The notes under the pieces were generated by a model. That model saw nothing but the letters and a program-made list of their open reading frames with translations, made no database searches and was not told the origin of the DNA. The translations under genes and the position numbers were made by a program. 64,000 bases of DNA from a phage, in NCBI GenBank assembly GCA_024674815.1, contig GCA_024674815.1_4104.1. One strand, given 5' to 3'. Shown in pieces: positions 13,993 through 33,145 of this stretch (its first letter is position 1; every line of letters starts with the position of its first letter).

Positions 13993-14412
13993 TCATTTAC
14001 AGTTTTCTATAACTATTGCACGTTTTAGTATTTTACTTTCATAAACATACTTAAGATGACCTTCTTCACGAATACGATTGAACACATATCCTAGTTTATC
14101 TTTTAGTACTGAAGCGGTATCAATGTCAAGATTAACTTCAACCCCTCCTGTTAATTTAACTTTATATGTAAATCTAAAAGCATCACCAGATTCAACCAAT
14201 GGGACTACTTGTTCATACGTATTCAACATAACTCGTTCATCATTAACTAAATTATATATTACTATATCACAAGTTTTTACCCCAATTTCCTCTAATGTAG
14301 GAGCATTATCTACTATAACATCTTTTACTGTATTTGCAACCTGTTTAGCATCTGCTGCATATACATTAAAACTAAAAAGTACTAAAATAATACTTAAAAA
14401 AATCTTTTTCAT
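13993..14412 (-). CDS. secreted protein (signal peptide)
   Basis: N-terminus MKKIFLSIILVLFSFNVYA. Confidence 0.65.
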   Translation of the reverse strand: MKKIFLSIILVLFSFNVYAADAKQVANTVKDVIVDNAPTLEEIGVKTCDIVIYNLVNDERVMLNTYEQVVPLVESGDAFRFTYKVKLTGGVEVNLDIDTASVLKDKLGYVFNRIREEGHLKYVYESKILKRAIVIENCK

Positions 14413-14421
14413 TATATATCC

Positions 14422-14745
14422 TTATTTTATTTTACACGTCATATCGGGTTGTGCTTGTTTATTATTTTTAAACGGATTAGGTTTTTTATCTTTCTTTTTA
14501 TCTTTTAAAGGTTTTTTGTCTTCTTTTTTATCTTTATCTTTGTCTTTTTTATTTTTATCAGGTTCAGAGGGAGTATTACATTGTGCTGGGGGTTGATTAG
14601 TTGGAGTACAGCTATTGTCTGATGGGAGTATTACTTCTTTACAATTGTAAAATAGTAAACTTTTATTTGTGGTTAAATTATGAAAACGATAGTTACGTTC
14701 ATTATTATAATAAATTGTTTTAGTACTTTCAATGCCATTGCACAT
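14422..14745 (-). CDS. Lys/Asp-rich low-complexity protein
   Basis: KDKDKDKKEDKK tract; Cys-containing N-terminal part. Confidence 0.45.
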   Translation of the reverse strand: MCNGIESTKTIYYNNERNYRFHNLTTNKSLLFYNCKEVILPSDNSCTPTNQPPAQCNTPSEPDKNKKDKDKDKKEDKKPLKDKKKDKKPNPFKNNKQAQPDMTCKIK

Positions 14746-14755
14746 TGCTACTGAA

Positions 14756-15007
14756 TCACCGGAACTCTTTTTCTATTCCCATTACATCAGTCTTACGCTC
14801 AGATAGTATACCTGAAGTATATGAATCTTTGTTGTCAAACGCATTAAATCCAATAGTTCTGTCGGTGTCGTGTATTATTCCTTTTGTGTATGAGGTAGTA
14901 TAGAACTCCCCATTTCTGAAATCCTGCCTTGCTACGGAGCAATGATAATCTGCACCATAAGCAGTACTGGAAAATAATACAATTCCAAATATAATATATT
15001 TTTTCAT
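14756..15007 (-). CDS. small secreted protein
   Basis: Start set at MKKYIIFGIVLFSSTAYG with AGAGGGA SD. Confidence 0.55.
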   Translation of the reverse strand: MKKYIIFGIVLFSSTAYGADYHCSVARQDFRNGEFYTTSYTKGIIHDTDRTIGFNAFDNKDSYTSGILSERKTDVMGIEKEFR

Positions 15008-15050
15008 TGTAATCCCTCTTCTTAATTCCTCTTTTGTATTTACAAAAAAA

Positions 15051-15068
15051 GGCTGACCGAAGTCAACC
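15051..15068 (-). terminator. PeSL-type terminator hairpin
   Basis: ggctgaccgaagtcaacc, A-run before and T-run after in plus orientation. Confidence 0.6.
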
Positions 15069-15078
15069 TTTTGTTTTA

Positions 15079-16332
15079 TCATTTACCGTATTTGCTCATG
15101 ATGTCCTTTTCCCAAGGAGTTACATTTCCATTTTCGTAATCACGGAAAGAGTCATCAAGTGTAGTCAATGCATAATCATATGCCTCACCGGATTCAACAT
15201 CAATATCAACAGCACCATTCACTACATCAGTCCACGCTTTTTGTAGTTTACGAGCGTTGTTACCAACTTTATCTTTAATCCAACTAAGATTTCGGTTTAT
15301 ACTCTTCTTATCAGCACCAGCTTTTTCACCAACATCTGCAACCCATTGCATTAATTTCTGTAGTTCGTTATGGGATTTTTCAGTCATTTGGCGGTCTTGT
15401 GACAGTTCAGCTTCCATGTCATCAATTTCTTCGTCTGAATGAACATCGTTCTGTTCTACTGCACCTTCTTCATCATCACGCATCAGATAACCATCTCGTG
15501 TAACCTTCTCACCATGATCAGCTTCATACTTTTTCATAGTATTGAATGCAGCATCCATTGCAGTTACAAAACGACTCTTTTCACCTTGTACATAAGATTT
15601 AAGTGCATCGTTAACTGCATCAGATACTAATTTAATCTTATCGTCTTTACCTTCCAGACGGTTTTCTAACTTAGCTAGTACATTCTTAACTTTTTGAGCA
15701 TTAGCACGGTCTTCTTTACCAATACTATCAAATGTTTTAAGTACGCTTTCAAGACTTACTTCCTCTTGTGCAGGCACATCACCTTGTTGCGTACCTTCAA
15801 GTGCACGCATTATAGTACTGAATACTTCAGTTGGTTCAGTACTGGTATTTCCACTCATTGCATCAAGCACAGCTTGTGCTTTGACTTTTAATTCTTCTTT
15901 AGGTACAGATTGCAATTCTTTCACAATACCTTGGATAAGTTGTGGTTTATTAGCAAAAATCTTACCTAACTTATCCGACAGTTCTTTGACAGGGTTAACC
16001 GCCTTTGGTGCTTCTTGTTTTGGTTCTTCTTTAGCAGGAGCAGATTTTTCTTTTTCTTCACGTTCCATATCAGCTAGGCGTTGTTTTTGTGTAGCATTAA
16101 GAAGTCCCAATGAATTAACATAACGTAGCTTTTCTAGCTCAGTCATGTTCTCAGTACTCTTAACTTCACCTGCTTCTGCGTTTGCTTTACCAGCTAGACC
16201 AGTTCCTTGGTTACGTGATCCACGTGAACCTTGACCTGCTTGATAACTATTTGGACGGCGGTTGCGTTCACTCCATTTATCAGAGTGACCAGCCATGTTA
16301 CCACCATTTTTATCAGTAAAATTACTTGGCAT
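15079..16332 (-). CDS. large charged hypothetical protein (paralog of 16602..16985)
   Basis: Shares LRYVNSLGLL and KEL-x-VPKEELKVKA segments with 16602..16985; start set at Met after GGAGAG. Confidence 0.6.
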   Translation of the reverse strand: MPSNFTDKNGGNMAGHSDKWSERNRRPNSYQAGQGSRGSRNQGTGLAGKANAEAGEVKSTENMTELEKLRYVNSLGLLNATQKQRLADMEREEKEKSAPAKEEPKQEAPKAVNPVKELSDKLGKIFANKPQLIQGIVKELQSVPKEELKVKAQAVLDAMSGNTSTEPTEVFSTIMRALEGTQQGDVPAQEEVSLESVLKTFDSIGKEDRANAQKVKNVLAKLENRLEGKDDKIKLVSDAVNDALKSYVQGEKSRFVTAMDAAFNTMKKYEADHGEKVTRDGYLMRDDEEGAVEQNDVHSDEEIDDMEAELSQDRQMTEKSHNELQKLMQWVADVGEKAGADKKSINRNLSWIKDKVGNNARKLQKAWTDVVNGAVDIDVESGEAYDYALTTLDDSFRDYENGNVTPWEKDIMSKYGK

Positions 16333-16392
16333 TTGATTTCTCTCCATAGATTTCATTTTTTCTCTATGTCTATATTTATAGTATAAAGAAAA

Positions 16393-16410
16393 GGCTGACC
16401 GAAGTCAACC
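16393..16410 (-). terminator. PeSL-type terminator hairpin
   Basis: ggctgaccgaagtcaacc plus flanking U-run on minus strand. Confidence 0.55.
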
Positions 16411-16418
16411 TTATTTTG

Positions 16419-16532
16419 TTACTTAGATTGTTCTTGTGCAGGTGGATTTACTTTTTGATCCACTACATAGAATACACCACCAACCAGTACTGCGGCGATG
16501 AGTGCAGCAACTACAAATTTCAAACCTTGCAT
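16419..16532 (-). CDS. 37-aa single-TM mini-protein (below ORF-track cutoff)
   Basis: MQGLKFVVAALIAAVLVGGVFYVVDQ...; GAGGT SD; flanked by two PeSL hairpins. Confidence 0.4.
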   Translation of the reverse strand: MQGLKFVVAALIAAVLVGGVFYVVDQKVNPPAQEQSK

Positions 16533-16561
16533 ATATGATACCTCAGTTATATTGAGAATTT

Positions 16562-16595
16562 ATGATACAACAAAGGGCTGACCTTAGTCAACCCC
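16562..16595 (-). promoter_or_regulatory. PeSL-like cassette, variant loop
   Basis: gggctgaccttagtcaacccc hairpin; TTGACT-18-TATCAT. Confidence 0.5.
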
Positions 16596-16601
16596 TTTTT
16601 A

Positions 16602-16985
16602 TTACTTCTTGAACTTATGTTTTTCACTTTCGATTGCATTCACGATTTCATCATGAATTTTACGAAGATTGTGAGTTTTCTTTAGAGATTCATGTAATGC
16701 ACGGAATGCAGAGTGTACAGTTGCTTTAAAGTGCTCTTTAGGAGTTACTTTAAGTTTCTCGATAATATCACGTACATAGATTGGGTGATCCTCAAACACA
16801 CGATTAAGCTCATGACCTAGTGATTCTAGGCTAAATGCTTTTTCACGGGATGGACGATCATGTGCAAGACTTTGGTCTGGTTTTAGAAGACCTAGTGAAT
16901 CTAGATACTTGTGCTTATGTGCATTGTCTAGACCAGAAATATCAACATCATGTGATGGATCTTTCTTATTCCATTTATCAACCAT
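16602..16985 (-). CDS. hypothetical protein (paralog of 15079..16332)
   Basis: HKYLDSLGLLKPDQ and KLKVTPKEHFKATV motifs shared. Confidence 0.6.
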   Translation of the reverse strand: MVDKWNKKDPSHDVDISGLDNAHKHKYLDSLGLLKPDQSLAHDRPSREKAFSLESLGHELNRVFEDHPIYVRDIIEKLKVTPKEHFKATVHSAFRALHESLKKTHNLRKIHDEIVNAIESEKHKFKK

Positions 16986-17100
16986 TTTTATAACTCCTAT
17001 AAGAGATAAATTTTACTATAATATTTATAGTTCCGTTGTCATTTATATCGAATGACATAAAACATTATATCATAATAAGAATGGTTGTCCCAAAGTTAAA

Positions 17101-17574
17101 TTAGTACTGATCAAGTTCAGATGTAAAAATGAATGCATCCATGTCTTCCAACGTAAGTTTTAAGTCTGGTACATACTTAAGAATAACGCACTCTGGCTTC
17201 TTAATAGCAGCTTGATAAGCAGCAATGGCAAGGGATTCCAACTGCTGTGCTGTATAATTTTTACGTTCTGCATTAAAAACTTTGTTTTTGATATCACCAC
17301 CTGGGAGTTTTTCAAACTCACGCATAACTGCGGTAAGAACATCGTCAGCAGTGTTACTATATACCCATTGGGGTAATTGCATTACATTATAAATCACACC
17401 ACTATCATCCATCAAAGAGATCCATTTGTACCCATCACTAGCACTGAACAAACGCCCTTTTAGTACTGTGTTATTAGTTAAATTTACAAATGCAAAAATA
17501 TCTTGTTCGTTAAGTTCAATACTATTAACATTTACCCAACTCATTACGATTCCCCATTCATAAATCACGAACAA
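17101..17574 (-). CDS. hypothetical protein
   Basis: 157-aa ORF. Confidence 0.6.
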   Translation of the reverse strand: MFVIYEWGIVMSWVNVNSIELNEQDIFAFVNLTNNTVLKGRLFSASDGYKWISLMDDSGVIYNVMQLPQWVYSNTADDVLTAVMREFEKLPGGDIKNKVFNAERKNYTAQQLESLAIAAYQAAIKKPECVILKYVPDLKLTLEDMDAFIFTSELDQY

Positions 17575-18154
17575 TATTCATTAAACACAATTTAGGTTTT
17601 ATAGCATTCAACACCCATATGCATTCTTTGTAAGTAGCTATTATATCATCTAAATGCTCAGTTACAATGCTTTCTTGAAAATATTCTTCATCATTGAGCT
17701 TTGCTAATTTAGTAACATCACACGTAGGCACTATAGGTCTGGATTTTACACCCATTCCATTATTGATATTAGTGAAATGTACAAAATGGTACTTCACAAC
17801 ACCTTTATCTAGATTTATTATACATGACAAATTTTCCAACTCAGTTAGTTTTTTATTACAAGTAACATTAATGAAACCAGCATTATAGGCTCTATAATCA
17901 TCTACTGATATCTCAAAATCATTACGTTCAAATATAAGTGAAATGAGTTGGTCCAGTGGTTTGACATTCATATATTTTAATGAATTTACGTATGATACTT
18001 CAATCTTAGATGAAATTATCTTTTTACTAAGTGCAGTTAATTCTTTGTTAGATTTAACTGTTAAAACAATAGGTTTAAACCTAGAACTTTTGTTCTTTTT
18101 TGATACTTTAAAACGACCTTTACGATTCATAATTTCCTCAATTAATAATTTCAC
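17558..18154 (-). CDS. hypothetical protein with EEYFQES motif (possible distant EE-FQ-S family member)
   Basis: C-terminal NDEEYFQESIVTEHLDD. Confidence 0.55.
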   Translation of the reverse strand: MKLLIEEIMNRKGRFKVSKKNKSSRFKPIVLTVKSNKELTALSKKIISSKIEVSYVNSLKYMNVKPLDQLISLIFERNDFEISVDDYRAYNAGFINVTCNKKLTELENLSCIINLDKGVVKYHFVHFTNINNGMGVKSRPIVPTCDVTKLAKLNDEEYFQESIVTEHLDDIIATYKECIWVLNAIKPKLCLMNIVRDL

Positions 18155-18359
18155 ATTTAACGTGTGGTTTATATAGCATAATTAACCCATTTTTAAGTAC
18201 AATGATTGTTGCTCTGTTAGTAATCGAAACGTTTTTAATTATACTTTTTTTATATGTTTCAACATATTTCTCTTCATAATTTATACATTTAACATATTCT
18301 TTTTGTTTAGCACTTACAACAGTACTGAATAATATCAGTACAAGTACTATATATTTCAT
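18138..18359 (-). CDS. small secreted protein
   Basis: MKYIVLVLILFSTVVSA signal peptide. Confidence 0.55.
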   Translation of the reverse strand: MKYIVLVLILFSTVVSAKQKEYVKCINYEEKYVETYKKSIIKNVSITNRATIIVLKNGLIMLYKPHVKCEIIN

Positions 18360-18381
18360 TACTATACCTTATAAACAAAAA

Positions 18382-18401
18382 GGAATTCATTTAAGAATTC
18401 C
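18382..18401 (-). terminator. terminator hairpin (bidirectional-looking)
   Basis: ggaattcatttaagaattcc flanked by A-run and T-run. Confidence 0.55.
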
Positions 18402-18411
18402 TTTTTTACAA

Positions 18412-18705
18412 TCATTTATCTAACATACCATTGTGCAAACGTTCATATACTTCAGTTCGACGCAAATTCACAATATCTTCTGCGTATTTTAATGTAAATG
18501 CCCATGCTTTTGGATGTACGTTAAGCTTCATACGAATTCGATTTTTCATCAACTCTCCACTTAAACGAATAAATTCGTGTACACCACGACTACCGTATTC
18601 AGTAATTAAATCATTAATGTACATATCACGAAGAGTTTCATCTGCACATTCTTTAACCATTTCTACGTCAGCGACGATGCTTTCATTAACTGAAGTACTG
18701 ATCAT
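18412..18705 (-). CDS. hypothetical protein
   Basis: 97-aa ORF. Confidence 0.55.
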   Translation of the reverse strand: MISTSVNESIVADVEMVKECADETLRDMYINDLITEYGSRGVHEFIRLSGELMKNRIRMKLNVHPKAWAFTLKYAEDIVNLRRTEVYERLHNGMLDK

Positions 18706-18717
18706 TTTTAATTTACC

Positions 18718-18984
18718 TTATTTAAATTCGACTGTAATTTTATCACCTTCAACTACGAACTTACAGTTGTAGCGACGTGCCATATCCATGTACATATGCT
18801 CAGAGTACCAAGGAACATCAATAATCGGATGCTCTGCATATTGTAGAACTTCACGGTCGCCCACTGTAGTAATGATGAAAGGAATGTTCATCTCTCGTAA
18901 AAACAGTTCAGCACCAGGAGAACGATTAATAAATTCAGTATCATTACGTAAAGTAAATCCATTATATTGTAATTTAAGCTTCAT
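18718..18984 (-). CDS. hypothetical protein
   Basis: 88-aa ORF. Confidence 0.55.
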   Translation of the reverse strand: MKLKLQYNGFTLRNDTEFINRSPGAELFLREMNIPFIITTVGDREVLQYAEHPIIDVPWYSEHMYMDMARRYNCKFVVEGDKITVEFK

Positions 18985-18998
18985 ATGTTATCCTCTAT

Positions 18999-19343
18999 TC
19001 AATACCATTCTTTAAAACCATTAAGTTCGGCTACGTGAGTGATTATAACACATATAACATTCAGGTCAAGTATAATTTGATCATAATTTAATTTTATACG
19101 ATCATCATTATATGCTCTAAAAACTACATCGTAATCAAAGAAATTTGCGTTTTCATCATTCATTGAAACGATTCGGTATCTACGTCTTCCATCTGTATTG
19201 AATATAGTTAAACACTGTTGAAACTTTCTCATTAACTGTTTAGATAGGATATTATAATATTCAATATCTTTTTGTGAATTACGTGGGTCATCAGGAAAAT
19301 AGAATGAAACAAATTTCTTTAATTCTATTTGAGTTTTATCCAT
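18999..19343 (-). CDS. hypothetical protein
   Basis: 114-aa ORF. Confidence 0.55.
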   Translation of the reverse strand: MDKTQIELKKFVSFYFPDDPRNSQKDIEYYNILSKQLMRKFQQCLTIFNTDGRRRYRIVSMNDENANFFDYDVVFRAYNDDRIKLNYDQIILDLNVICVIITHVAELNGFKEWY

Positions 19344-19776: not shown

Positions 19777-19804
19777 AATTAAAATCCTCTAATTTATTAA
19801 GAGA

Positions 19805-19836
19805 ATTATAACAAAAAAGGCTGACCGAAGTCAACC
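19805..19836 (-). promoter_or_regulatory. PeSL-like cassette (terminator hairpin + promoter)
   Basis: ggctgaccgaagtcaacc hairpin; TTGACT-18-TATAAT. Confidence 0.6.
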
Positions 19837-20022
19837 TTTGTTTTGAAGTTCTTGAACTAATTGTCGTACTTCGTTAATATTTTTACACTGCTTTACAGTG
19901 AAGTAATCATACTTACGACCATAGGTTCTTGGGTCATCACCTTCCATATACTGCTGCACATCAAAGATTTGTAAGTAGGGATGCTGCATAACACGAATAT
20001 TATCACTTTGATAAATCAACAT
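19831..20022 (-). CDS. hypothetical small protein
   Basis: ORF with stop inside PeSL hairpin; start trimmed to internal Met. Confidence 0.4.
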   Translation of the reverse strand: MLIYQSDNIRVMQHPYLQIFDVQQYMEGDDPRTYGRKYDYFTVKQCKNINEVRQLVQELQNKG

Positions 20023-20026
20023 AATA

Positions 20027-20377
20027 TCAATCCTTATATTTACACAAGCCACCAAAACTAGTTTCTTTAGCACCACGACGCATCATAACTAATTTAGCAT
20101 ATTGTGTGCCATTACTATCTTCATATACATCTACTTCAATAAACGCTAAGAAGTTAGGGTCTGTGTCGTTAGAAAACTCAGTGAAGCTAATGTCGCCTAC
20201 TGTATGCTCTTTAACAAACGTATATGATTGTCCATCAATATATACAATATCTCGATCGTCACTATCACCTTGATAGATATGTTTAATATTACCATCTGTA
20301 CAAACTAAACCTTCCAATGGTTCAGCATATGACAATCCACACATTAACATACATACAAAAAATAAAATAATTTTCAT
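20027..20377 (-). CDS. secreted protein
   Basis: MKIILFFVCMLMCGLSYA signal peptide. Confidence 0.6.
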   Translation of the reverse strand: MKIILFFVCMLMCGLSYAEPLEGLVCTDGNIKHIYQGDSDDRDIVYIDGQSYTFVKEHTVGDISFTEFSNDTDPNFLAFIEVDVYEDSNGTQYAKLVMMRRGAKETSFGGLCKYKD

Positions 20378-20379
20378 GA

Positions 20380-20757
20380 TTATTTTCCTCCAACGTTAAG
20401 TGATTTCTTGTACTGATATTCTTTATAAGTACTATACCATATATCACCAACGTAAATCAAGTACCACGTAGCAGGATAAAGAGCCAATCCAGTACTGATG
20501 TATACGAACTTTTGGTCAAGGACATCAAATACATACAGAAGGAAAGTTACTCCCATAATGCAAGAACAAATTAACCACAAGTTATAAGCAATCGAATCGC
20601 AAGCAAAAATAGAATCAAGCTTAGAAATTAGGACATATTTGTTTGTTAAAATGAAATGAATTACTGCAACTAAACAATATCCTGCCATAAAAATAGAAAT
20701 TAAAAAAGACAGAATAATTGGAATATTCAACAACAAAAGTAAAATAGTGTTTACCAT
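20380..20757 (-). CDS. multi-TM membrane protein
   Basis: Hydrophobic throughout. Confidence 0.6.
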   Translation of the reverse strand: MVNTILLLLLNIPIILSFLISIFMAGYCLVAVIHFILTNKYVLISKLDSIFACDSIAYNLWLICSCIMGVTFLLYVFDVLDQKFVYISTGLALYPATWYLIYVGDIWYSTYKEYQYKKSLNVGGK

Positions 20758-20768
20758 TTTTTTAAGTC

Positions 20769-21128
20769 CTATATTTCACAGTGTAAGTTCAATTTATCTA
20801 TATCTAGGTCACGGCGTACCGATGAGTCCAAGTAAATTACTATATAGATATCACCATTACCAGTTCTTGGGTCTACAATTAATATTACGTTTGCTAATGT
20901 ACCAGAATCATCTCTATAAGTCGAGATTTTTTTATTACCGATAATACTTTCTACTTTAAAACGATAAATCACACCATCAACAACTATATTTTTACCATTT
21001 CTAGGGTCGTTAGTCAATACATGCCACGTTCCCTTAGTACTACGACAATATGTTTCTGCTGCTGCACCATAACTAAAACATGAAAATAATGCACACACAA
21101 GTGCTATTAATTTTATATAACTCTTCAT
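20769..21128 (-). CDS. secreted protein
   Basis: MKSYIKLIALVCALFSCFSYGAAA signal peptide. Confidence 0.6.
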   Translation of the reverse strand: MKSYIKLIALVCALFSCFSYGAAAETYCRSTKGTWHVLTNDPRNGKNIVVDGVIYRFKVESIIGNKKISTYRDDSGTLANVILIVDPRTGNGDIYIVIYLDSSVRRDLDIDKLNLHCEI

Positions 21129-21206: not shown

Positions 21207-21533
21207 TTACATCTTATTCGTGAACTTGAATTTGATAATATCAATCCAAATTTTAACATTTCCTGCAAATAGTGCTTTGATTAGCCACATAATTGCAACA
21301 AAGTTCTCAACTAAATCCAAAGTTTTAACTACTGCACCGAGTGGGAAGATAAAACTCAAAATCCATACAATTACTGAAACCACAACGACTGTATAGAAAA
21401 TACGCACAATCGGTGAATCAAGCATAAACAACTCAGAGAACTCTTTTTTATCATTATCATCAGTAATAAAGCATTCGTAAACCAGAAGCCAAATCAGAAT
21501 TAAAGACGGAATTGAAATTAGTACTGATAGCAT
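21207..21533 (-). CDS. membrane protein
   Basis: Two or three hydrophobic helices. Confidence 0.6.
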   Translation of the reverse strand: MLSVLISIPSLILIWLLVYECFITDDNDKKEFSELFMLDSPIVRIFYTVVVVSVIVWILSFIFPLGAVVKTLDLVENFVAIMWLIKALFAGNVKIWIDIIKFKFTNKM

Positions 21534-21580: not shown

Positions 21581-21608
21581 ATTATACAGTACTACGAACG
21601 TTTGTCAA
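21581..21608 (-). promoter_or_regulatory. near-consensus sigma70 promoter
   Basis: TTGACA-16-TATAAT on minus strand, upstream of 21207..21533. Confidence 0.6.
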
Positions 21609-21834
21609 CATTTGTTTCTTCAATAAGCATAAGATAACTTAACACGAAGAGTAATACCGAAATAATATCAATAACTGTAAAGCTCACTGGAATGATAATA
21701 GACACCAGTACTAATGCCACGTTTAGCAAGAATACAGTAGTGAGATCTACCATCGTTCGCCTAGTGGCTAATGCCACTAGTGTAGGATAGAACATAAACA
21801 ATAGTGCAACAACAAAACTTAGTACTAGATACAT
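21592..21834 (-). CDS. small membrane protein
   Basis: 80 aa, hydrophobic. Confidence 0.5.
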   Translation of the reverse strand: MYLVLSFVVALLFMFYPTLVALATRRTMVDLTTVFLLNVALVLVSIIIPVSFTVIDIISVLLFVLSYLMLIEETNVDKRS

Positions 21835-24039: not shown

Positions 24040-24255
24040 TCACACTGCCACTCCTAATAGGTCGGTAGCTTTCTTGAGTACTACGTCAATGGTTTCCAGT
24101 ACTGCACCTTTGTGTTCAATTGATACAATATTATTATAAGTATCAAGGTCCAAGTACTCCATATATTCAGTTTTGAATACACGAACATCAGTACTAGTGA
24201 TTTTAATATCACAACCTTTATCCCAAATAACCTGCATCATTTCATTGGTAGTCAT
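24040..24255 (-). CDS. hypothetical protein
   Basis: 71-aa ORF. Confidence 0.5.
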   Translation of the reverse strand: MTTNEMMQVIWDKGCDIKITSTDVRVFKTEYMEYLDLDTYNNIVSIEHKGAVLETIDVVLKKATDLLGVAV

Positions 24256-24530
24256 TATTCAACCTTATCATAAACAAGTTTGTGTGTGCTTAGTACTTTG
24301 TTGTGATGTCCAGGGCATTCATATACATACAATCGCTCCTGTCGTTTTTCCCAACCACCACAGATACGACCTGATTGTGTACATACCTCATACTCGTTAA
24401 TAAAAGACTTACCTGTGAATGTACAATCCTGACGAACTAAGTCTTTTGCACTAAACCTGCCGTCATCATTACATGCTGTAAGAAACATTGTACAGAATAC
24501 AAAGACAACTGTCAATAGTTTTTTAATCAT
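24255..24530 (-). CDS. putative lipoprotein
   Basis: Signal peptide with lipobox LTAC. Confidence 0.6.
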   Translation of the reverse strand: MIKKLLTVVFVFCTMFLTACNDDGRFSAKDLVRQDCTFTGKSFINEYEVCTQSGRICGGWEKRQERLYVYECPGHHNKVLSTHKLVYDKVE

Positions 24531-24897: not shown

Positions 24898-25143
24898 TTA
24901 TTCTCCATGAATTACGGAAGTGTTGATTCGTGTTTTACCGCTAGTGTATCCAGTACTTGTATTTGCATTAGGACAGTACACAGTGTATAAAGTCGCACCA
25001 GCACCATCTTGTTGCATACGATAAATCTTACACCCTGCTTCTTTTAATTCAGCAGGTAGAACAAAATCACTTGTACGTTCTTTGGTAGAAGCATCACATG
25101 CAGTGAGTAGAAATGCGACGAGTACTGCTACAATGTATTTCAT
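24898..25143 (-). CDS. putative lipoprotein
   Basis: MKYIVAVLVAFLLTAC lipobox. Confidence 0.6.
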   Translation of the reverse strand: MKYIVAVLVAFLLTACDASTKERTSDFVLPAELKEAGCKIYRMQQDGAGATLYTVYCPNANTSTGYTSGKTRINTSVIHGE

Positions 25144-25864: not shown

Positions 25865-25894
25865 TTGTTAAAGTGGATTTCGTTTGATATAAAC

Positions 25895-26412: not shown

Positions 26413-26427
26413 GATAATTTCCTCTGA

Positions 26428-27216: not shown

Positions 27217-27217
27217 T

Positions 27218-27448
27218 TTACATTAATCCTTCTATGCTACAACCAATAAGTACTTTTTTCACTTCAATAACTCGTACCAAATAGAATCCATTTGAAAAGT
27301 TAAAACTATACATTTGTACTAAGGCATCTGCTTCAGATTTCGCACGGATACATGATAGATAAATTTCACGTATATCACCATCCAACGATACTTGTTTCTC
27401 TGCATTGATGACAATAGAACGAATCTCAAAACGAACGCCATAACTCAT
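27218..27448 (-). CDS. hypothetical protein
   Basis: 76-aa ORF. Confidence 0.5.
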   Translation of the reverse strand: MSYGVRFEIRSIVINAEKQVSLDGDIREIYLSCIRAKSEADALVQMYSFNFSNGFYLVRVIEVKKVLIGCSIEGLM

Positions 27449-27654
27449 TGAGTTTGTCCTACAATAAGCTTTGTGTTAGTATTACTATTGTAACACCACA
27501 TTTGTTCTTTACTAACTGTAATCCAAATATCTTTGTTTACTTGTTCGTATGTACTATCACGTACTGCTATGCATTGATTCATGGAATTCATTGGGGTTAT
27601 TTGTACACCGGAATTAACAGAGAAAGCGACTACTAAAAAGATTACTGAATTCAT
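27445..27654 (-). CDS. small secreted protein
   Basis: N-terminal hydrophobic signal-like segment. Confidence 0.5.
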   Translation of the reverse strand: MNSVIFLVVAFSVNSGVQITPMNSMNQCIAVRDSTYEQVNKDIWITVSKEQMWCYNSNTNTKLIVGQTQ

Positions 27655-28270
27655 TTGATATTCCTTAATGGTTAATCATCCATCTCTTCGAGATGTCTGT
27701 TCGCTTCTAATACTACGTATTCTACGCGAATGATTAATAACTGTCAAGGACTTTTAATATTGACGGGATTTGAGGAAGGGATTTTTCTTCCCCCCACAAG
27801 GAGGGAAATTTGACGCTGATGGTATCAGAGCTATTGCATTGAAGATTACTCATAAAGAGTGCGAAAGCGGGTCATCCTGTTTCTCTCTACTTCAGTTTCA
27901 TATGACGGTCTACACTTTTAAACATAGTGTATCTTCATTAAGTATCTATGCAATCAAATACTTAATGTGAGTACTCAAATTTTGGACGCAACTTTCCTGT
28001 ACAAAATTCGATAACTCTCCCTTAGATAATTCGTAAGGTGTTATCCTTATATGTCTATCAAGGAACCACCAGCTATCCTAACGTGGTTCTTTATACAGCC
28101 GCATTGCCGTGAGGGGTTCAAACTATGCCCACATCTAACGGGTTTCTTTTGCTGTTCGCACTGTCGGACTGCTCAACTGCCCTCTACGTTTTCGAGTGGA
28201 TCAGGTACATGAATATCATGCCAACAGAATTGTACAAGATAATTATATCACAAACTTTTACTTCATCCCA
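27655..28270. other. ~600-bp ORF-free, relatively GC-rich region (candidate structured ncRNA or regulatory region)
   Basis: No ORF of 60 aa or more except a weak 66-aa plus ORF; composition differs from flanks. Confidence 0.4.
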
Positions 28271-28278
28271 TAAAAAAA

Positions 28279-28296
28279 GGTTGGCATAAGCCAACC
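28279..28296 (-). terminator. Rho-independent terminator after sigma-factor gene
   Basis: ggttggcataagccaacc hairpin followed by U-run on minus strand. Confidence 0.65.
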
Positions 28297-28304
28297 CTTG
28301 TTCT

Positions 28305-29270
28305 TTAGAAATCTTCGTATTCGTACCCTTTTGCAAGTACTAACTTCTTAAGCTTTTGCATAGCTTCACTGTACTTTCGATGTATTGATGAACGGGATTT
28401 AACATATTTTCCATTATCATCAACAAAACCATTATCAGCAATCTCACGAAGCGTTTCAGGTTCATATTCACCTAGACCATGAACACGCTGGATAATCTCA
28501 CGTTCTTTAGTACTCAATTCGTTGGTCAGTTCATTGATAGCATAACGCAAAGGTGCACGGATACTATCAACATTGAGGTTAAAATCAGAAGCAGGTGAAT
28601 GAATAATGTCACCTAATGTACCATCTGTAACACCGTCTAATGGTGCATCCAGCGAAGTGTATTCGCTTTGAAATAACAAACAATTATTAACATGCTGAAT
28701 CTCAATCCCAGTACCCTCTGAGATTATTTCAGGAGTTGGGCGAACACCATGTTTACGCATATATTCCTGACAGAATCTTTTTACTTTGATCTTATGAACA
28801 CTCATATAACGTGGGAAGTGTACCATATAGTTAGCGTCAGAACTTTCGTTATAGACTGTCATGTAAATACTAGAAGAAGCATAGGTAATGAACTTAACAT
28901 TCTTATTAAGATCAAAGGTTTTTAGTGCTCTCATGAACCCCTCAACACCATATGAAATCTTATCTTCAAATGGGATATAACAAGTACATTTACTTGCTAC
29001 ATCAATAATCAGTCCATAATTGTAACGAACTAACAGTTCAGTGTTTTTCTTTACATTGATACCAGCTTGAATATCACGAATTAGATCTTCATTGGAAACA
29101 TTTGGTGGTCGCTTAAGTGTAATATTATATTTGAAACTGCTTTGTACTTTACCTTCATTATCATCTTTATCTTCAACGAAATCTAAGGCTTCTAGTGTGT
29201 TGACTTCTTCATTAGCAAAACATTCATCCAGAACTTCTTCGGCAATTGTATTTAAATCAAGCTTTTTCAC
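28305..29270 (-). CDS. sigma-70-family RNA polymerase sigma factor
   Basis: Region-2-like YGVEGFMRALKTFD...KFITYA; region-4-like C-terminus; 321 aa. Confidence 0.6.
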   Translation of the reverse strand: MKKLDLNTIAEEVLDECFANEEVNTLEALDFVEDKDDNEGKVQSSFKYNITLKRPPNVSNEDLIRDIQAGINVKKNTELLVRYNYGLIIDVASKCTCYIPFEDKISYGVEGFMRALKTFDLNKNVKFITYASSSIYMTVYNESSDANYMVHFPRYMSVHKIKVKRFCQEYMRKHGVRPTPEIISEGTGIEIQHVNNCLLFQSEYTSLDAPLDGVTDGTLGDIIHSPASDFNLNVDSIRAPLRYAINELTNELSTKEREIIQRVHGLGEYEPETLREIADNGFVDDNGKYVKSRSSIHRKYSEAMQKLKKLVLAKGYEYEDF

Positions 29271-29291
29271 TTACATCTCCTAATGACGAAA

Positions 29292-29789
29292 TCAAAATCG
29301 ATATACATTAATATTATCATCTGTGAAGCAATCATGGTTGTGCACATCCATGAAAGTACTAAACACTTTATCATATAAAGTTGTATGTTCTTCATGAATA
29401 GCAGCATCTAGCATGTATTCTCCACCACTTCCCATAAAGAAAGTGTAGTCTTCATGTAGGTATTCAAGTTTTTTAATAAACTTTCCTTTAGTTAAAATCA
29501 TATGAATAACATAATCTTTAGAAAGAAGCACACAATGGCAACTTAACTTTCTGTCAGGTATAACTGGTACTTTATTAATTAACCAATCCAGTACTTTATC
29601 AATTTCACTTACTACCCCACTAGCACTGAATAAACGGTCATGTACATATAAAGTTTTTTGATTAACAACTCCATATTGATATTTTGGTCTTAGTGGGAAA
29701 AAACCAAATAAGTTTCGTGGTATAGTTGACGTAACTCTAGAATCGGTAATCAATAAATTTAATCGTTTATCAATATAAACAGTTGTCAT
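29292..29789 (-). CDS. hypothetical protein
   Basis: 165-aa ORF. Confidence 0.6.
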   Translation of the reverse strand: MTTVYIDKRLNLLITDSRVTSTIPRNLFGFFPLRPKYQYGVVNQKTLYVHDRLFSASGVVSEIDKVLDWLINKVPVIPDRKLSCHCVLLSKDYVIHMILTKGKFIKKLEYLHEDYTFFMGSGGEYMLDAAIHEEHTTLYDKVFSTFMDVHNHDCFTDDNINVYRF

Positions 29790-29790
29790 A

Positions 29791-30210
29791 TTAAACCTTA
29801 TCTAAGAATTTATCGTATATATAAAATTCTTTATCGGTGAATACATTAATTCTAGTATCGAATCTTTGCATCGTGTTCATATACAATGAACTTTTTAAAT
29901 AAAAATACAAAGCAACAAATTCTGATATATGCATATTCTTTTTATTGTTACATAAATTCTTTAGCATTTTGATGCTATCAAATTCTTCTTTATCAAATCT
30001 GTACTGGTAAAAATTATATCTATTGAACTGGCACTCATAGATACGAAGTGCCATTATATCAATACATGCTTGCGATTTACAGTACTTATTCAATACGTCA
30101 TAATCACCCGTACATAATGCTACAAAGATTTTATGTGCAAGTGTAGCTTTTCCTTCAATCGTATGATAACCAAAGAACTTAATGATTAAGTACTGAAGAA
30201 ATCTAAACAT
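29791..30210 (-). CDS. hypothetical protein
   Basis: 139-aa ORF. Confidence 0.6.
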   Translation of the reverse strand: MFRFLQYLIIKFFGYHTIEGKATLAHKIFVALCTGDYDVLNKYCKSQACIDIMALRIYECQFNRYNFYQYRFDKEEFDSIKMLKNLCNNKKNMHISEFVALYFYLKSSLYMNTMQRFDTRINVFTDKEFYIYDKFLDKV

Positions 30211-30215
30211 TTTAT

Positions 30216-30476
30216 TTAGAATTTCTCCGAAATTACAAGTGTATCATCATAATCATCAGCAATATCATGAAGAACTTTTAAGTTACTTTCACCAGAAACG
30301 CTTTTTACTTCGTTCAAAAGATAGTTTAGATCAACTTTAGTTACTTTTTCTGAATCAAACACACAGAAAGTTAATTCAGCGTTTGGACAGATCTTCTTCA
30401 GATTATCAGCAACCACTTGTTTGAAGTTGAAAGATGGGGAAGCAACTAGGTTAACTGCAACGAGAATAGATTTCAT
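30216..30476 (-). CDS. hypothetical protein
   Basis: 86-aa ORF. Confidence 0.5.
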   Translation of the reverse strand: MKSILVAVNLVASPSFNFKQVVADNLKKICPNAELTFCVFDSEKVTKVDLNYLLNEVKSVSGESNLKVLHDIADDYDDTLVISEKF

Positions 30477-30550
30477 AATGTTTTCCTTTCTAGCTGATAA
30501 TTAAATTAGGAGCACATTGTACTCCATATTATTTGTTATGTCAAATACTT

Positions 30551-30802
30551 TTAGATACCAAGTGCAGTAGATAACTCTTTACGTTTGTTATATGAATCAG
30601 ATTCAATCTTACTTTTCTTGTTGAAAAGGGATTCGATATCCTTATAGATTGCTTCGATAGATTTAGTTACTACCCATTCTGATTCTTGAAGCATACCTTG
30701 GAGTCGTGCGTACTCAACTTTGATAGTACTGCGAAGTTCTTCACAAACTTCTTCATTCTTAATTAGTGCAGCACTAAGTTCTTTGACCGTATCGATGTTC
30801 AT
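30551..30802 (-). CDS. hypothetical protein
   Basis: 83-aa ORF. Confidence 0.5.
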   Translation of the reverse strand: MNIDTVKELSAALIKNEEVCEELRSTIKVEYARLQGMLQESEWVVTKSIEAIYKDIESLFNKKSKIESDSYNKRKELSTALGI

Positions 30803-30861
30803 AAGTTCCTTACTCTAATTTGTTTTTAACAAAATAATTATATATAACATACTAAATTATG

Positions 30862-31287
30862 TCAAGTATTTTTAGTACCTTCTTCTGCCATTTTTGTGAT
30901 ATACCAATTAAGTACTGATTTGTGTACCATAAAAAATGTGAATGCAAATATAGCAATAGCTGCTGATGTAACACTATTAGATAATGACCCAAGTTGGATG
31001 TTAGTACCTAAAATAACAATAAATGGATACAACACAATCAATCTACTGTAAGGTTCGTCTCCAGTATCACGGAGAAATCCAAGCCTTTCATGATCCGTAT
31101 CCATAGTGACAATTGGACAGAACATAAGTGCAGACATAAGAGCAATACCAATTTGTGCTACATTGGAAATTGTAAACCACAAAGGATTTAAACCATATGA
31201 AATATTATTTTCTGTACAGTAGTAACCAAACGAATTGAATGCACAAACTAAAAATACAAAAATACAAATCTTATTATAGCCTCTCAT
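30862..31287 (-). CDS. multi-TM membrane protein
   Basis: Hydrophobic helices. Confidence 0.6.
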   Translation of the reverse strand: MRGYNKICIFVFLVCAFNSFGYYCTENNISYGLNPLWFTISNVAQIGIALMSALMFCPIVTMDTDHERLGFLRDTGDEPYSRLIVLYPFIVILGTNIQLGSLSNSVTSAAIAIFAFTFFMVHKSVLNWYITKMAEEGTKNT

Positions 31288-31706
31288 TTGTTTAGTTCCG
31301 TTAATTTTCGTTTAACTTCTAGATCATGAAACTCATCGGCATATGAGTTTTGAACAGTTCTGATGTATTCCAACATAACAAACATAGTTCCACATACCCA
31401 TAGATATGTATAGTAATCAAATACAAATGCATATAACATGCACGGTAATAAAATGAAAGTGTAAACAAAACTATATCGTGTAGTTCCAAATACTTTCAGA
31501 TATAACAAACGTCGATAATCACGGGCAAATGTATTGATGCACACTGAAAATGTAATTAATGTATACCATGAAATACCCTGAATTAAACCTGAAACATTTA
31601 CAAGTTTATGTTCATCGGAAAACCCCAGTGCATTTAGCACTGGAGCCATAACCCAACCAATAATACTAATAAGAAAAAGATATTTTGCATTACTTAGTGT
31701 GAACAT
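31284..31706 (-). CDS. multi-TM membrane protein
   Basis: Hydrophobic helices. Confidence 0.6.
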   Translation of the reverse strand: MFTLSNAKYLFLISIIGWVMAPVLNALGFSDEHKLVNVSGLIQGISWYTLITFSVCINTFARDYRRLLYLKVFGTTRYSFVYTFILLPCMLYAFVFDYYTYLWVCGTMFVMLEYIRTVQNSYADEFHDLEVKRKLTELNK

Positions 31707-31707
31707 A

Positions 31708-32166
31708 TTACTTTAGTCCCCATGCTTTTTTGATTGCATCAACAGAGTTTTGGTCCACTACTTCCTTTTTTTCTGATGTAGTTTGAAGTTTATTAATTAC
31801 ATATTCCTTTGCATCTTTTTCTATCATAAATTTACCATCAACCAACACACCAAAAACTTTAGAATTTCGGGCTGGATATGGATTAATTTCATCAAGAGTA
31901 CGGACTTTCTTATCAACTATAATGGCTTTGATGTAACCAGTTTCAAGTACTGTTGTAATCACAGTCATTTCAATTGCAACTGGTGAATCTTCCCAATACG
32001 CAATCCATTTAGTAAAGCTACGATCAGGTGAATCTTTTGTGCATTTTAATTTAATTGCACTATTAAAAATGTATTGTTTAAAATTGTCATCGACAACTTC
32101 ACTAATACTAAAATAACCTTCACGCTCTTCAACATTACGTTTGAAATTTGTAGCTAATACATCCAT
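31708..32166 (-). CDS. hypothetical protein
   Basis: 152-aa ORF. Confidence 0.6.
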   Translation of the reverse strand: MDVLATNFKRNVEEREGYFSISEVVDDNFKQYIFNSAIKLKCTKDSPDRSFTKWIAYWEDSPVAIEMTVITTVLETGYIKAIIVDKKVRTLDEINPYPARNSKVFGVLVDGKFMIEKDAKEYVINKLQTTSEKKEVVDQNSVDAIKKAWGLK

Positions 32167-32207
32167 TTTCCATCCCCCTTGGGTTACTTGGTGTGTTAAT
32201 TATAATA

Positions 32208-32684
32208 CTAAGAATCTTTGTTGTCAAACTTTTCCCTCAAATATTTTTCTATTAATTTAATTTGTGTTGGTGGTAAGATAAAGTAATCGTACATAGATTT
32301 ACTACCATGTATCGAACAACCTACACTAATACTATAATCATATGGATATAAGTATATTGGGTCTTGTATATCAGGTATGAAAACTATTCTTGATATATTA
32401 CCATTTCCTATTCTTACTTGGACGTTATCATTATTATTAAGATAATTTCTTATACAGTACTCAATTATACCATTTACTTTAGAATCATAACCATAATTTT
32501 TATATTCAGGAAAAATGAAATAGCGTTCATGGTATAGATATGAGCATAGTAACGCTGGGAAAAAATTCCAAAATCCTTCATGTTTTGCAATTGTTTGTGC
32601 ATATTTAAAATGATTAGCATTACTAAAAATATTATACAGCACAAAATACACAAATGGACTTACCAACAACACTATTGTTAACAT
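32208..32684 (-). CDS. hypothetical protein with N-terminal TM anchor
   Basis: 158-aa ORF. Confidence 0.6.
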   Translation of the reverse strand: MLTIVLLVSPFVYFVLYNIFSNANHFKYAQTIAKHEGFWNFFPALLCSYLYHERYFIFPEYKNYGYDSKVNGIIEYCIRNYLNNNDNVQVRIGNGNISRIVFIPDIQDPIYLYPYDYSISVGCSIHGSKSMYDYFILPPTQIKLIEKYLREKFDNKDS

Positions 32685-33145
32685 CAGAAGCCTCTGTATT
32701 TTTCATATACTTCAACGCATTCCATGATTTTGTCATCGTCCATCATATCATAGCCTTGTAGAAATTCTTCTTTATCAACCTTCCCTGCCATCATATCTGT
32801 GTCAGAAATTCTGGAGTCATAGAAGGAATACATATCTTTATAGTACTGGTTTTTGTGCTGCTCAATCTTTACTTTAGCATATCCAGCACAAAATGAAGGA
32901 GATTTAACAACTTCCCATTTATGCTTCTTGATGGGTTTATCATTAGCATGTTTTTCCCTGTATGTCTGACGATAACGTTCACGCATTTCAGGCATGTATT
33001 CGTCAGCAGTACGTTTAGGGGGAGTTTTACCAGTCCCAATAGTTTTAATAGTTTGACGTTGTTCTTCTGCGTGTACTGGGGAAATAAAACATGATGTGCC
33101 AAACAGTACTGCTACGATAACCATAAAATTCTTAAACATAATCAA
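32684..33145 (-). CDS. secreted protein
   Basis: Signal peptide ending SPVHA. Confidence 0.6.
   Translation of the reverse strand: MIMFKNFMVIVAVLFGTSCFISPVHAEEQRQTIKTIGTGKTPPKRTADEYMPEMRERYRQTYREKHANDKPIKKHKWEVVKSPSFCAGYAKVKIEQHKNQYYKDMYSFYDSRISDTDMMAGKVDKEEFLQGYDMMDDDKIMECVEVYEKYRGF

What the first reader, a model, noticed from the sequence alone, without database searches (positions are those of the whole stretch)
13993..33145. Numerous small secreted proteins and lipoproteins scattered through the region
At least eight ORFs carry clear N-terminal signal peptides (13993-14412, 14756-15007, 18138-18359, 20027-20377, 20769-21128, 32684-33145), two of them with lipoboxes (24255-24530 LTAC, 24898-25143 LTAC). 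Phage-encoded periplasmic proteins and lipoproteins commonly mediate superinfection exclusion, receptor masking or lysis control. Their abundance here is notable.
Basis: seen in the sequence. Interest (0 to 1): 0.4.

Follow-up and report, generated by a model that had tools for sequence, protein, structure and literature searches.

The report
Secreted-protein gene cluster in jumbo phage
A 19-kb early-gene stretch of a Rak2-like jumbo coliphage holds about half of the phage's predicted exported proteins (six secreted, two lipoproteins, all of unknown function), which probably act on the host cell envelope; this has not been shown.

Summary
The window is an Asteriusvirus jumbo phage (99.6% identical to vB_EcoM_E9.1/PBECO4/121Q). 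All eight listed N-termini have the signal-peptide architecture, and two pass the PROSITE lipobox rule. Orthologues keep that architecture although the peptide sequences diverge. Mature parts nearly always carry an even number of cysteines.

The clustering is real. There are 8 of 48 ORFs here against 0 of 108 elsewhere in the window. Genome-wide, 8 of 15 calls fall in 5% of the genome.

The region lies behind consensus sigma-70 promoters, so it is probably early. The known spanins lie elsewhere.

Function is unresolved:
- 20027-20377 and 20769-21128 are paralogues in a five-gene membrane/periplasm module conserved to RaK2.
- A "Cor" annotation in a relative comes from the signal peptide alone.

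Superinfection exclusion is plausible but untested.

In passing: a roughly 520-nt covarying structured RNA at about 27740-28260, with about four copies per Rak2-like genome and no Rfam match.

The parts
13993..14412 (-). Sec-type secreted protein, 139 aa. Signal peptide MKKIFLSIILVLFSFNVYA. Mature part has 2 Cys, one N-proximal and one penultimate.
   Evidence: Orthologues only in vB_Ec-M-J and Turkey5 (40-41% identity), with diverged but intact signal peptides and both Cys invariant. No Pfam, PHROG or PDB match. Single-sequence AF2 model unusable (pLDDT 48.6).
14756..15007 (-). Sec-type secreted protein, 83 aa (MKKYIIFGIVLFSSTAYG|AD). The ORF runs on to 15082, but the internal ATG is the likely start.
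   Evidence: GAGGG upstream of the start. phrog_28901 matches residues 26-108 of the long form. The vB_Ec-M-J orthologue begins at this Met.
18138..18359 (-). Sec-type secreted protein, 73 aa. Mature part is 56 aa with 2 invariant Cys.
   Evidence: Signal peptide kept in A4, vB_Ec-M-J and Turkey5. phrog_31284, function unknown.
20027..20377 (-). Secreted 116-aa protein. Predicted eight-stranded beta-barrel with Cys26 in strand 1 and Cys112 in strand 8. Paralogue of 20769-21128.
20380..20757 (-). Small multi-pass membrane protein, 125 aa, lying between the two barrel genes.
   Evidence: RaK2 orthologue L006:28905-29261. phrog_31707, function unknown.
20769..21128 (-). Secreted 119-aa paralogue of 20027-20377, with the same two invariant Cys.
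   Evidence: Orthologues to RaK2 have unrelated signal-peptide sequences but the same architecture.
21207..21533 (-). 3-TM membrane protein, 108 aa. First gene after the consensus promoter.
   Evidence: RaK2 orthologue L006:28170-28493.
21592..21834 (-). 2-TM membrane protein, 80 aa. Upstream member of the conserved five-gene module.
   Evidence: RaK2 orthologue L006:27579-27884.
21581..21608 (-). Perfect TTGACA-16-TATAAT promoter-like site ahead of 21533.
19816..19839 (-). Intrinsic-terminator-like hairpin downstream of 20027-20377.
24255..24530 (-). Lipoprotein, 91 aa. Lipobox FLTA|C with +2 Asn. Four further Cys in the mature part.
   Evidence: PS51257 match. Lipobox kept in UE-S1, A4, vB_Ec-M-J and Turkey5; Turkey5 has LTG|C with +2 Asp. 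phrog_31263, function unknown.
24898..25143 (-). Lipoprotein, 81 aa. Lipobox LLTA|C with a conserved +2 Asp, the inner-membrane retention signal in E. coli. Two further Cys.
   Evidence: The mature part still matches phrog_902 (5.7e-7) but not Cor. Homologues occur in 572 phage records, including Felixounavirus, Vibrio phages and CR9-like phages.
27445..27654 (-). Ambiguous 69-aa protein with an N-terminal hydrophobic segment. It has no positive n-region and could be a signal anchor.
   Evidence: Conserved to RaK2.
32684..33145 (-). Sec-type secreted protein, 151 aa from the ATG at 33139. Cleavage at SPVHA|EE. Basic N-terminal half; 2 Cys in the C-terminal half.
   Evidence: Signal peptide and V(H/Y)A site kept in four relatives. 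phrog_36332, function unknown. No PDB match.

Best explanation
The region is part of the early, host-RNA-polymerase-transcribed accessory arm of a Rak2-like (Asteriusvirus) jumbo phage. It concentrates genes whose products leave the cytoplasm: six small proteins with cleavable Sec signal peptides, two lipoproteins, and about ten small membrane proteins.

Shown:
- signal-peptide and lipobox architecture, and its evolutionary conservation;
- a cysteine pattern typical of disulfide-bonded periplasmic proteins;
- significant clustering;
- consensus sigma-70 promoters;
- absence of the known spanins from the region.

Inferred: soon after infection these proteins are exported and alter the host envelope. 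The most likely purpose is to shield the infected cell from further attack, whether superinfecting phages or peptidoglycan hydrolases.

The best-defined unit is a module conserved from Asteriusvirus to RaK2, covering 21834 to 20027. It encodes a 2-TM protein, a 3-TM protein, a secreted barrel, a multi-TM protein and a second secreted barrel. The last four genes lie behind a perfect promoter, and a terminator follows the module.

The two barrels are orphan paralogues. Each has eight strands with a conserved cysteine in strand 1 and in strand 8, which is the architecture of MliC/PliC/ACP lysozyme inhibitors. They may therefore bind and block a periplasmic enzyme such as a phage tail lysozyme, as T4 Spackle does with a different fold.

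The +2 Asp lipoprotein 24898-25143 would sit on the outer face of the inner membrane. The other lipoprotein probably goes to the outer membrane.
For: Identity and context:
- 99.6% identity to E9.1 and JP4, and 97-99% to PBECO4 and 121Q.

Export:
- Heuristic calls with controls.
- Conservation of signal-peptide architecture across orthologues with 30-98% identity.
- Further family members found in 1.84 billion representative proteins also have a signal peptide and two Cys.
- Even cysteine counts.

Clustering:
- p=5e-5 in the window and p=6e-6 genome-wide.
- The same region in UE-S1, A4, vB_Ec-M-J and Turkey5 holds 4-8 such genes, with none in their flanks.

Early timing:
- 10 perfect TTGACA-N16-18-TATAAT sites on the coding strand against 0.13 expected. 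There are 26 relaxed sites against 3.6 expected, and none on the other strand.
- The CBB paper assigns the homologous RpoD-promoter-rich arm to early genes.

Module and fold:
- RaK2 synteny.
- Promoter and terminator.
- AF2 pLDDT 81, about 90 in the core.
- MliC/PliC/ACP share a strand 1-strand 8 disulfide, and ACP inhibits lysozyme without the family motifs (PMC5507604).
- Spackle is an early periplasmic disulfide-bonded lysozyme inhibitor that causes exclusion (PMC7677548).

Faster turnover:
- Median identity to relatives is lower than for neighbouring genes, and presence is patchier.
Against: - No experiment and no homology links any of the eight proteins to a known exclusion, masking or lysis protein.
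- The Pfam MliC model, the SxSGAxY and YxxxTKG motifs, and profile searches all fail.
- The strand 4-strand 5 connection in the model is a tight two-residue turn, not an inserting loop.
- Signal peptides were judged with a home-made heuristic, not SignalP.
- Promoter matches are consensus matches only.
- The eight proteins are mostly unrelated to each other, so they need not share one function.
Confidence: 0.45

Rival explanations
1. The cluster is a heterogeneous collection of unrelated accessory early genes that happen to target the envelope. Functions could include nutrient or ion handling, outer-membrane or LPS remodelling, blocking host defences or competitor weapons such as colicins and T6SS effectors, or lipid or ligand binding by the barrels. 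There would be no common exclusion function.
For: - The eight proteins fall into at least seven unrelated families.
- Gene content of the region turns over between close relatives.
- Lipocalin-like, avidin-like and T6SS-immunity barrels score almost as well as PliC.
Against: The clustering is strong and conserved in position. This suggests at least a shared regulatory or compartment logic. It is not evidence against diverse biochemical roles.
Confidence: 0.35
2. The proteins control lysis, acting as antiholin-like periplasmic sensors, extra spanins, or endolysin inhibitors that set lysis timing.
For: - Small lipoproteins and signal-anchored proteins are typical lysis-cassette products.
- A lysozyme-inhibitor-like fold could restrain the phage's own endolysin.
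Against: - The recognised spanin pair lies elsewhere and is absent from the window.
- Homologues of 24898-25143 are not the spanins in CR9, FSL SP-010 or Felix O1.
- No holin, endolysin or i-spanin neighbour was found.
- Consensus sigma-70 promoters argue for early, not late, expression.
Confidence: 0.1
3. Many of the N-termini are uncleaved membrane anchors or prediction artefacts, so there is no secreted-protein cluster.
For: - Only a heuristic predictor was used.
- 27445-27654 and the 37-aa ORF at 16419-16532 are indeed better read as anchors.
- PS51257 also matches non-conserved Cys in 20769 and 32684.
Against: - h-regions are 12-18 residues long and are followed by conserved small -3/-1 residues.
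- The architecture is conserved while the sequence is not.
- There is an even-cysteine bias.
- The same detector fires on only 3% of the genome's genes.
Confidence: 0.07

Closest known systems
T4 Spackle (gp61.3), a periplasmic inhibitor of the gp5 tail lysozyme that causes superinfection exclusion
   Same: It is a small early-gene product with a cleavable signal peptide and one disulfide, and it acts in the periplasm of the infected cell (PMC7677548). The proteins here share all these inferred properties.
   Different: Spackle is an alpha-helical bundle, whereas the modelled protein here is an all-beta barrel. There is no sequence similarity to any PDB chain. No target is known.
MliC/PliC/ACP/PhiA periplasmic lysozyme or peptidoglycan-hydrolase inhibitors (Pfam PF09864 and relatives)
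   Different: - No Pfam, profile or PDB sequence match.
- The SxSGAxY and YxxxTKG motifs are absent.
- Foldseek does not rank them.
- These are bacterial proteins, not phage proteins.
Cor (phi80/N15/T1) and Llp (T5) outer-membrane lipoproteins that block FhuA
   Same: They are small phage lipoproteins of about 60-80 residues made by the infecting phage. The orthologue of 24898-25143 in vB_Ec-M-J is annotated as Cor.
   Different: The Cor profile hit is weak (E 0.0079), covers the signal peptide, and vanishes for the mature sequence. The conserved +2 Asp predicts inner-membrane rather than outer-membrane location.
Rz1-type o-spanins
   Same: They are small phage lipoproteins with periplasmic Cys.
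   Different: - The phage's spanin pair is a different locus.
- There is no adjacent i-spanin.
- Expression is probably early.
- The sequences are not Pro-rich.

Membership tests
Sec (SPase I) signal peptides | Positively charged n-region, 7-15+ residue hydrophobic h-region, and small residues at -3/-1 of a c-region within about 15-35 residues | tested here: met
   Met for six ORFs. Controls behaved correctly.
Sec (SPase I) signal peptides | Feature conserved in orthologues independently of sequence | tested here: met
Sec (SPase I) signal peptides | Positive call by a trained predictor (SignalP) or experimental cleavage | not testable with these tools
   No such tool was available.
Bacterial lipoproteins (PROSITE PS51257) | Lipobox pattern with Cys at positions 15-35, and Lys or Arg in the first seven residues | tested here: met
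   24255-24530 has Cys20 and 24898-25143 has Cys16. Conserved in orthologues.
MliC/PliC lysozyme inhibitors | Eight-stranded antiparallel beta-barrel | tested here: met
MliC/PliC lysozyme inhibitors | Disulfide between strand 1 and strand 8 | tested here: inconclusive
   Invariant Cys26 lies in strand 24-28 and invariant Cys112 in strand 108-114.
MliC/PliC lysozyme inhibitors | Conserved motifs SxSGAxY (loop 4) and YxxxTKG (strand 6) | tested here: not met
   Absent from alignment A2. Motif definitions are from PMC5507604.
MliC/PliC lysozyme inhibitors | Sequence or profile match (Pfam PF09864, PDB chains) | tested here: not met
   Foldseek also fails to rank PliC.
MliC/PliC lysozyme inhibitors | Inhibition of a lysozyme | not testable with these tools
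   Needs biochemistry.
Cor superinfection-exclusion lipoprotein (phrog_1119) | Profile match over the mature domain | tested here: not met
   The full-length protein hits at E 0.0079 over residues 1-48. The mature sequence gives no hit at E<=0.1.
o-spanin (Rz1-like) | Lipoprotein gene embedded in, overlapping or adjacent to an i-spanin gene in the lysis region | tested here: not met
   The neighbours are not i-spanins. The true pair lies elsewhere.
T4 Spackle / Imm | Sequence similarity to Spackle (PDB) or to Imm-annotated genes of relatives | tested here: not met
   No PDB hits. The Imm-annotated genes of vB_Ec-M-J have no counterpart in the window.

The most novel reading that the evidence does not exclude
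The conserved module 21834-20027 would be a new kind of superinfection-exclusion or envelope-immunity system. It comprises three small membrane proteins and two secreted, disulfide-closed eight-stranded barrels, expressed from a consensus early promoter. In this reading the barrels are phage-borne analogues of bacterial PliC/ACP-type inhibitors. They would neutralise the tail-associated or secreted peptidoglycan hydrolases of incoming phages or competitors, which is the Spackle job done with an unrelated fold.
Probability: 0.15. Interest if true: 0.6.

Novelty: new member of a known kind. Interest (0 to 1): 0.4.

Why it matters
Jumbo phages of the Rak2 group are used in therapy work, and more than 80% of their genes have no known function. 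This analysis shows that about half of the phage's predicted exported proteins sit in one early-expressed 19-kb stretch. That gives a short, testable list of eight genes and one five-gene module for phenotypes that affect phage cocktails: superinfection exclusion, receptor masking and resistance to lysis from without.

If the barrel pair does inhibit muramidases, it would show convergent evolution with Spackle using a bacterial inhibitor fold.

The work also corrects two annotation errors that propagate in databases. One is a "Cor" label that rests only on a lipoprotein signal peptide. The other is an N-terminally extended gene model that hides a signal peptide.

Tried and rejected
- Pfam, NCBIfam, PADLOC and PHROG scans of all candidates and of the neighbouring membrane proteins gave only unknown-function PHROGs or sub-threshold noise.
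- PDB sequence searches with single proteins and with profiles found nothing meaningful.
- The Cor and TrbK leads for 24898-25143 were rejected as driven by the signal peptide.
- The o-spanin idea for the two lipoproteins was rejected.
- Profile-profile tests found no link between 13993 or 18138 and the barrel family.
- The word-indexed homologue search returned only close relatives for 20027 and 24898. The exhaustive profile search found 15 hits and no bacterial MliC link.
- The single-sequence AF2 model of 13993-14412 failed (pLDDT 48.6).
- The afdb50 library was unavailable.
- The BFVD search showed only the family itself plus weak small barrels.
- The Imm-annotated genes of vB_Ec-M-J gave no PHROG hit and have no homologue in the window.
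- The phAPEC6 virion paper mentions none of these features.
Full report
**What the window is.** The 19.3 kb around the finding is 99.6% identical to Escherichia phages vB_EcoM_E9.1 and JP4. It is 97-99% identical to SP27, phAPEC6, PBECO4 and 121Q, which are Asteriusvirus "Rak2-like" jumbo myoviruses of about 350 kb. From about position 2000 onward all genes lie on the - strand. In the closest annotated record, nearly every gene in the region is "hypothetical". The exceptions are a protein kinase, two virion structural proteins, an HNH endonuclease and an RpoD-like sigma factor.

**Checking the observation.** No trained signal-peptide predictor was available, so I wrote a heuristic. It requires net non-negative n-region charge, an uncharged stretch with a strongly hydrophobic 8-residue core, and a -3/-1 small-residue site or a lipobox. 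In the screening version it also requires no further TM segment, at least one positive charge and a short h-region.

- It called nine of nine well-known E. coli signal peptides as signal peptides and rejected three of three cytoplasmic proteins. Pal was typed Sec rather than lipoprotein, and some cleavage sites were misplaced.
- The two lipoproteins also satisfy PROSITE PS51257.
- Each start codon is preceded by a Shine-Dalgarno-like motif.
- 14756 should start at the internal ATG at 15007. The 108-aa model used in E9.1 hides the signal peptide.

**Evidence independent of the predictor.**

- *Orthologues.* I fetched the syntenic region of six relatives whose sigma factors are 84% to 35% identical to the window's. 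Where orthologues exist, the signal-peptide sequences differ freely but keep the charge, hydrophobic core and AxA pattern. For 20769-21128 the peptides are MKSYIKLIALVCALFSCFSYGAAA, MKYVIIIITFLIGLISSSANA, MGKLTIIIAMIMALNVMPVEA and MHILLSLVLSTILLSFLPASVSA. The lipoboxes are conserved, as is the +2 Asp of 24898-25143.
- *Cysteines.* Seven of eight mature parts have an even, non-zero number of free cysteines. Usually there is one near the mature N-terminus and one within six residues of the C-terminus. Among small soluble proteins of the window the figure is 22 of 78 (p=0.002). This is the expected signature of disulfide-bonded periplasmic proteins (established knowledge).

**Is the abundance more than chance?** Yes.

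- With identical criteria, 8 of 48 ORFs in 13993-33145 are called, against 0 of 108 elsewhere in the window (p=5e-5).
- I assembled 350 kb of the 97.7%-identical, unannotated genome EC22.5-2 and called 505 genes with a codon-usage score.
- There were 15 signal-peptide or lipoprotein calls in all. Eight lie in the homologous 18.4 kb, and one of the other seven is the o-spanin (p=6e-6).
- In UE-S1, A4, vB_Ec-M-J and Turkey5 the same stretch holds four to eight such genes, and their 15-20 kb flanks hold none.
- Gene content differs between relatives. 13993, 14756 and 18138 are missing from some, and vB_Ec-M-J has extra ones.
- The exported proteins are on average more diverged than their neighbours.

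**Expression context.**

- The coding strand of the window carries ten perfect TTGACA-N16-18-TATAAT sites against 0.13 expected.
- It also carries 26 TTGACA-N16-18-TAnnnT sites against 3.6 expected. There are none on the other strand.
- Four perfect sites lie in the region: 32227, 30865, 25922 and 21608.
- For the related phage CBB, RpoD-like promoters concentrated in the arm that contains the sigma factor gene were interpreted as marking early, host-takeover genes (PMC5259590).
- Early transcription by host polymerase is therefore inferred, not shown.

**What the proteins are.** No candidate matches a Pfam, NCBIfam or PADLOC family. PHROG matches are to unknown-function families.

- *The lipoproteins are not spanins.* Kongari et al. 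place the 121Q/PBECO4 spanin pair at 121Q 245337-246017. The pair is absent from the window and sits at 141220-141896 in EC22.5-2.
- *The 24898-25143 family.* It belongs to a widespread small-lipoprotein family (phrog_902) found in 572 phage records, including Felixounavirus, Vibrio phages and CR9-like phages. In CR9 and FSL SP-010 the family member lies far from those phages' spanins.
- *The Cor label.* The weak Cor hit, and the Cor annotation of its orthologue in vB_Ec-M-J, disappear when the signal peptide is removed. phrog_902 remains. That label is an artefact.

**The barrel pair and its module.**

- 20027-20377 and 20769-21128 are paralogues with invariant Cys26, Asp38 and Cys112.
- With three small membrane proteins they form a five-gene module whose order is kept in RaK2.
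- A perfect promoter at 21608-21581 precedes the last four genes of the module, and a terminator-like hairpin follows at 19839-19816.
- The family is an orphan. There are 20 clusters in 5.8 billion proteins and 15 hits in 1.84 billion representatives. The small members are Rak2-like in origin and have a signal peptide and two Cys.
- AlphaFold2 with the family alignment gives a confident model: pLDDT 81, about 90 in the core, eight strands, Cys26 in strand 1 and Cys112 in strand 8.
- MliC, PliC and ACP share exactly this architecture, including a strand 1-strand 8 disulfide. ACP inhibits lysozyme without the family motifs (PMC5507604).

**Why the barrel lead is weak.**

- Foldseek finds nothing at E<=0.001, puts a lipocalin-like barrel first, and does not list PliC in the top 50.
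- The SxSGAxY and YxxxTKG motifs are absent, and no sequence or profile method links the families.

I therefore describe the pair as small disulfide-closed periplasmic barrels of the MliC/PliC/ACP architectural type. I do not file them as family members.

**Mechanism.** It is most likely that these genes are expressed early, exported through Sec/Lol, and act in the periplasm and membranes of the infected cell. Export is well supported (about 0.9). Early timing is inferred (about 0.7). A protective role, meaning superinfection exclusion or blocking of peptidoglycan hydrolases on the Spackle precedent (PMC7677548), is a hypothesis (about 0.35). For the barrel module specifically I put it at about 0.15-0.2. 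The main rival is a mixed bag of unrelated envelope functions. Lysis control is unlikely, and prediction artefact is very unlikely.

**Noticed in passing: a conserved structured RNA.** The 650-nt ORF-free gap between the sigma factor gene and 27445-27654 is nearly invariant over about 430 nt among phages whose sigma proteins are only 57-84% identical.

- *Distribution.* Homologues of about 520 nt occur about four times per genome in Rak2-like phages, with 221 places in 61 records. They are also found in CBB, GAP32, Serratia BF, Yersinia fHe-Yen9-04, Salmonella 7t3 and RaK2. In CBB, Serratia BF and fHe-Yen9-04 they lie in ORF-free gaps of about 650 nt; in GAP32, 7t3 and RaK2 short annotated ORFs overlap them.
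- *Specificity.* A conserved 22-nt motif hits only contigs of jumbo size, or fragments of them, in IMG/VR.
- *Promoter.* Each copy starts with an invariant TGnTATAAT-like element.
- *Structure.* RNAalifold predicts 70 pairs, 37 of them with compensatory changes.
- *Controls.* For 66 pairs, 95% of cells are paired, against 36-47% when partners are slid. The covariation score is 0.51 against at most 0.135, and 0 of 500 shuffles reach the observed values.
- *Known families.* Rfam has no match at gathering or at E<=10. I found no description in the paper library.
- *Possible relatives.* The related phage PA5oct has four abundant ncRNAs of unknown nature. Any relationship to this element is untested.

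This looks like an undescribed large structured RNA family and deserves its own follow-up.

**Verdict.**

- Observation: confirmed.
- Interpretation: plausible but unproven.
- Novelty of the finding: modest. These are known hypothetical genes, and the new points are that they form a significant early "exported-protein island" and include one orphan barrel module.

Noticed in passing
window about 27740-28260 (- strand), inside the 27655-28304 gap between the sigma factor gene and 27445-27654: A roughly 520-nt noncoding element.
- It is almost invariant among Asteriusvirus phages and about 70% identical in CBB, GAP32, Serratia BF and Yersinia phages.
- There are about 4 diverged copies per Rak2-like genome. 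In CBB, Serratia BF and fHe-Yen9-04 they lie in ORF-free gaps of about 650 nt; in GAP32, 7t3 and RaK2 short annotated ORFs overlap them.
- Each copy starts with a conserved TGnTATAAT.
- Covariation is strong: 37 of 66-70 pairs show compensatory changes, 95% of cells are paired against 36-47% in slid controls, and 0 of 500 shuffles reach the observed values.
- There is no Rfam match and no description in the paper library.
It is a candidate new large structured RNA family of jumbo phages.
   Followed up: partly
window, - strand: 51906, 50046, 49499, 40944, 34073, 32227, 30865, 25922, 21608, 11255 (first base of the -35 hexamer): Ten perfect TTGACA-N16-18-TATAAT sites, all on the coding strand, against 0.13 expected. 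A further 16 relaxed matches were found, with none on the + strand. The whole window looks like a host-sigma-70-driven early arm.
   Followed up: partly
window 3377-5816 and 11642-12936 (- strand): Tandem arrays of genes for small (about 105-125 aa) three-TM membrane proteins. 11901-12936 are detectable paralogues, and GAP32 has similar annotated arrays.
   Followed up: no
L004 (vB_Ec-M-J) 24143-24394; window 24898-25143: The database annotation "Cor superinfection exclusion protein" for this orthologue rests on a signal-peptide-only profile match. It disappears for the mature sequence.
   Followed up: yes
window 14756-15082; L001 1333-1659: The E9.1 gene model starts 25 codons too early, at an ATG overlapping the upstream stop. 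This masks the signal peptide. The PHROG profile and the vB_Ec-M-J orthologue start at the internal Met.
   Followed up: yes
L004 31221-31457, 33246-33509, 33506-33802; L005 29434-29670: Relatives carry extra genes in the same region. These are two 2-TM proteins annotated "immunity to superinfection" and another signal-peptide protein with terminal Cys. None has a counterpart in the window or a PHROG hit at E<=0.01.
   Followed up: partly
window 14422-14745 (- strand): A 107-aa ORF with a Cys-containing N-terminal half and an extremely Lys/Asp-rich tail (KNKKDKDKDKKEDKKPLKDKKKDKKP). It lies between two signal-peptide genes.
   Followed up: no
window 40551-45813 (- strand): A cluster of six tRNA genes (Thr, Asn, Met, Ser x2, Gly). 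There is also a borderline seventh tRNA-like Rfam hit at 44539-44617 (29.3 bits against a 29-bit threshold) that ARAGORN does not call. The tRNAs are interleaved with a family of about 55-aa paralogous ORFs at 44024-44510, 45841-46035 and 46096-46275.
   Followed up: no
window 15079-16356 and 16602-16985 (- strand): The two genes annotated as virion structural proteins are paralogous to each other. They sit in the middle of the otherwise early-looking exported-protein region.
   Followed up: no
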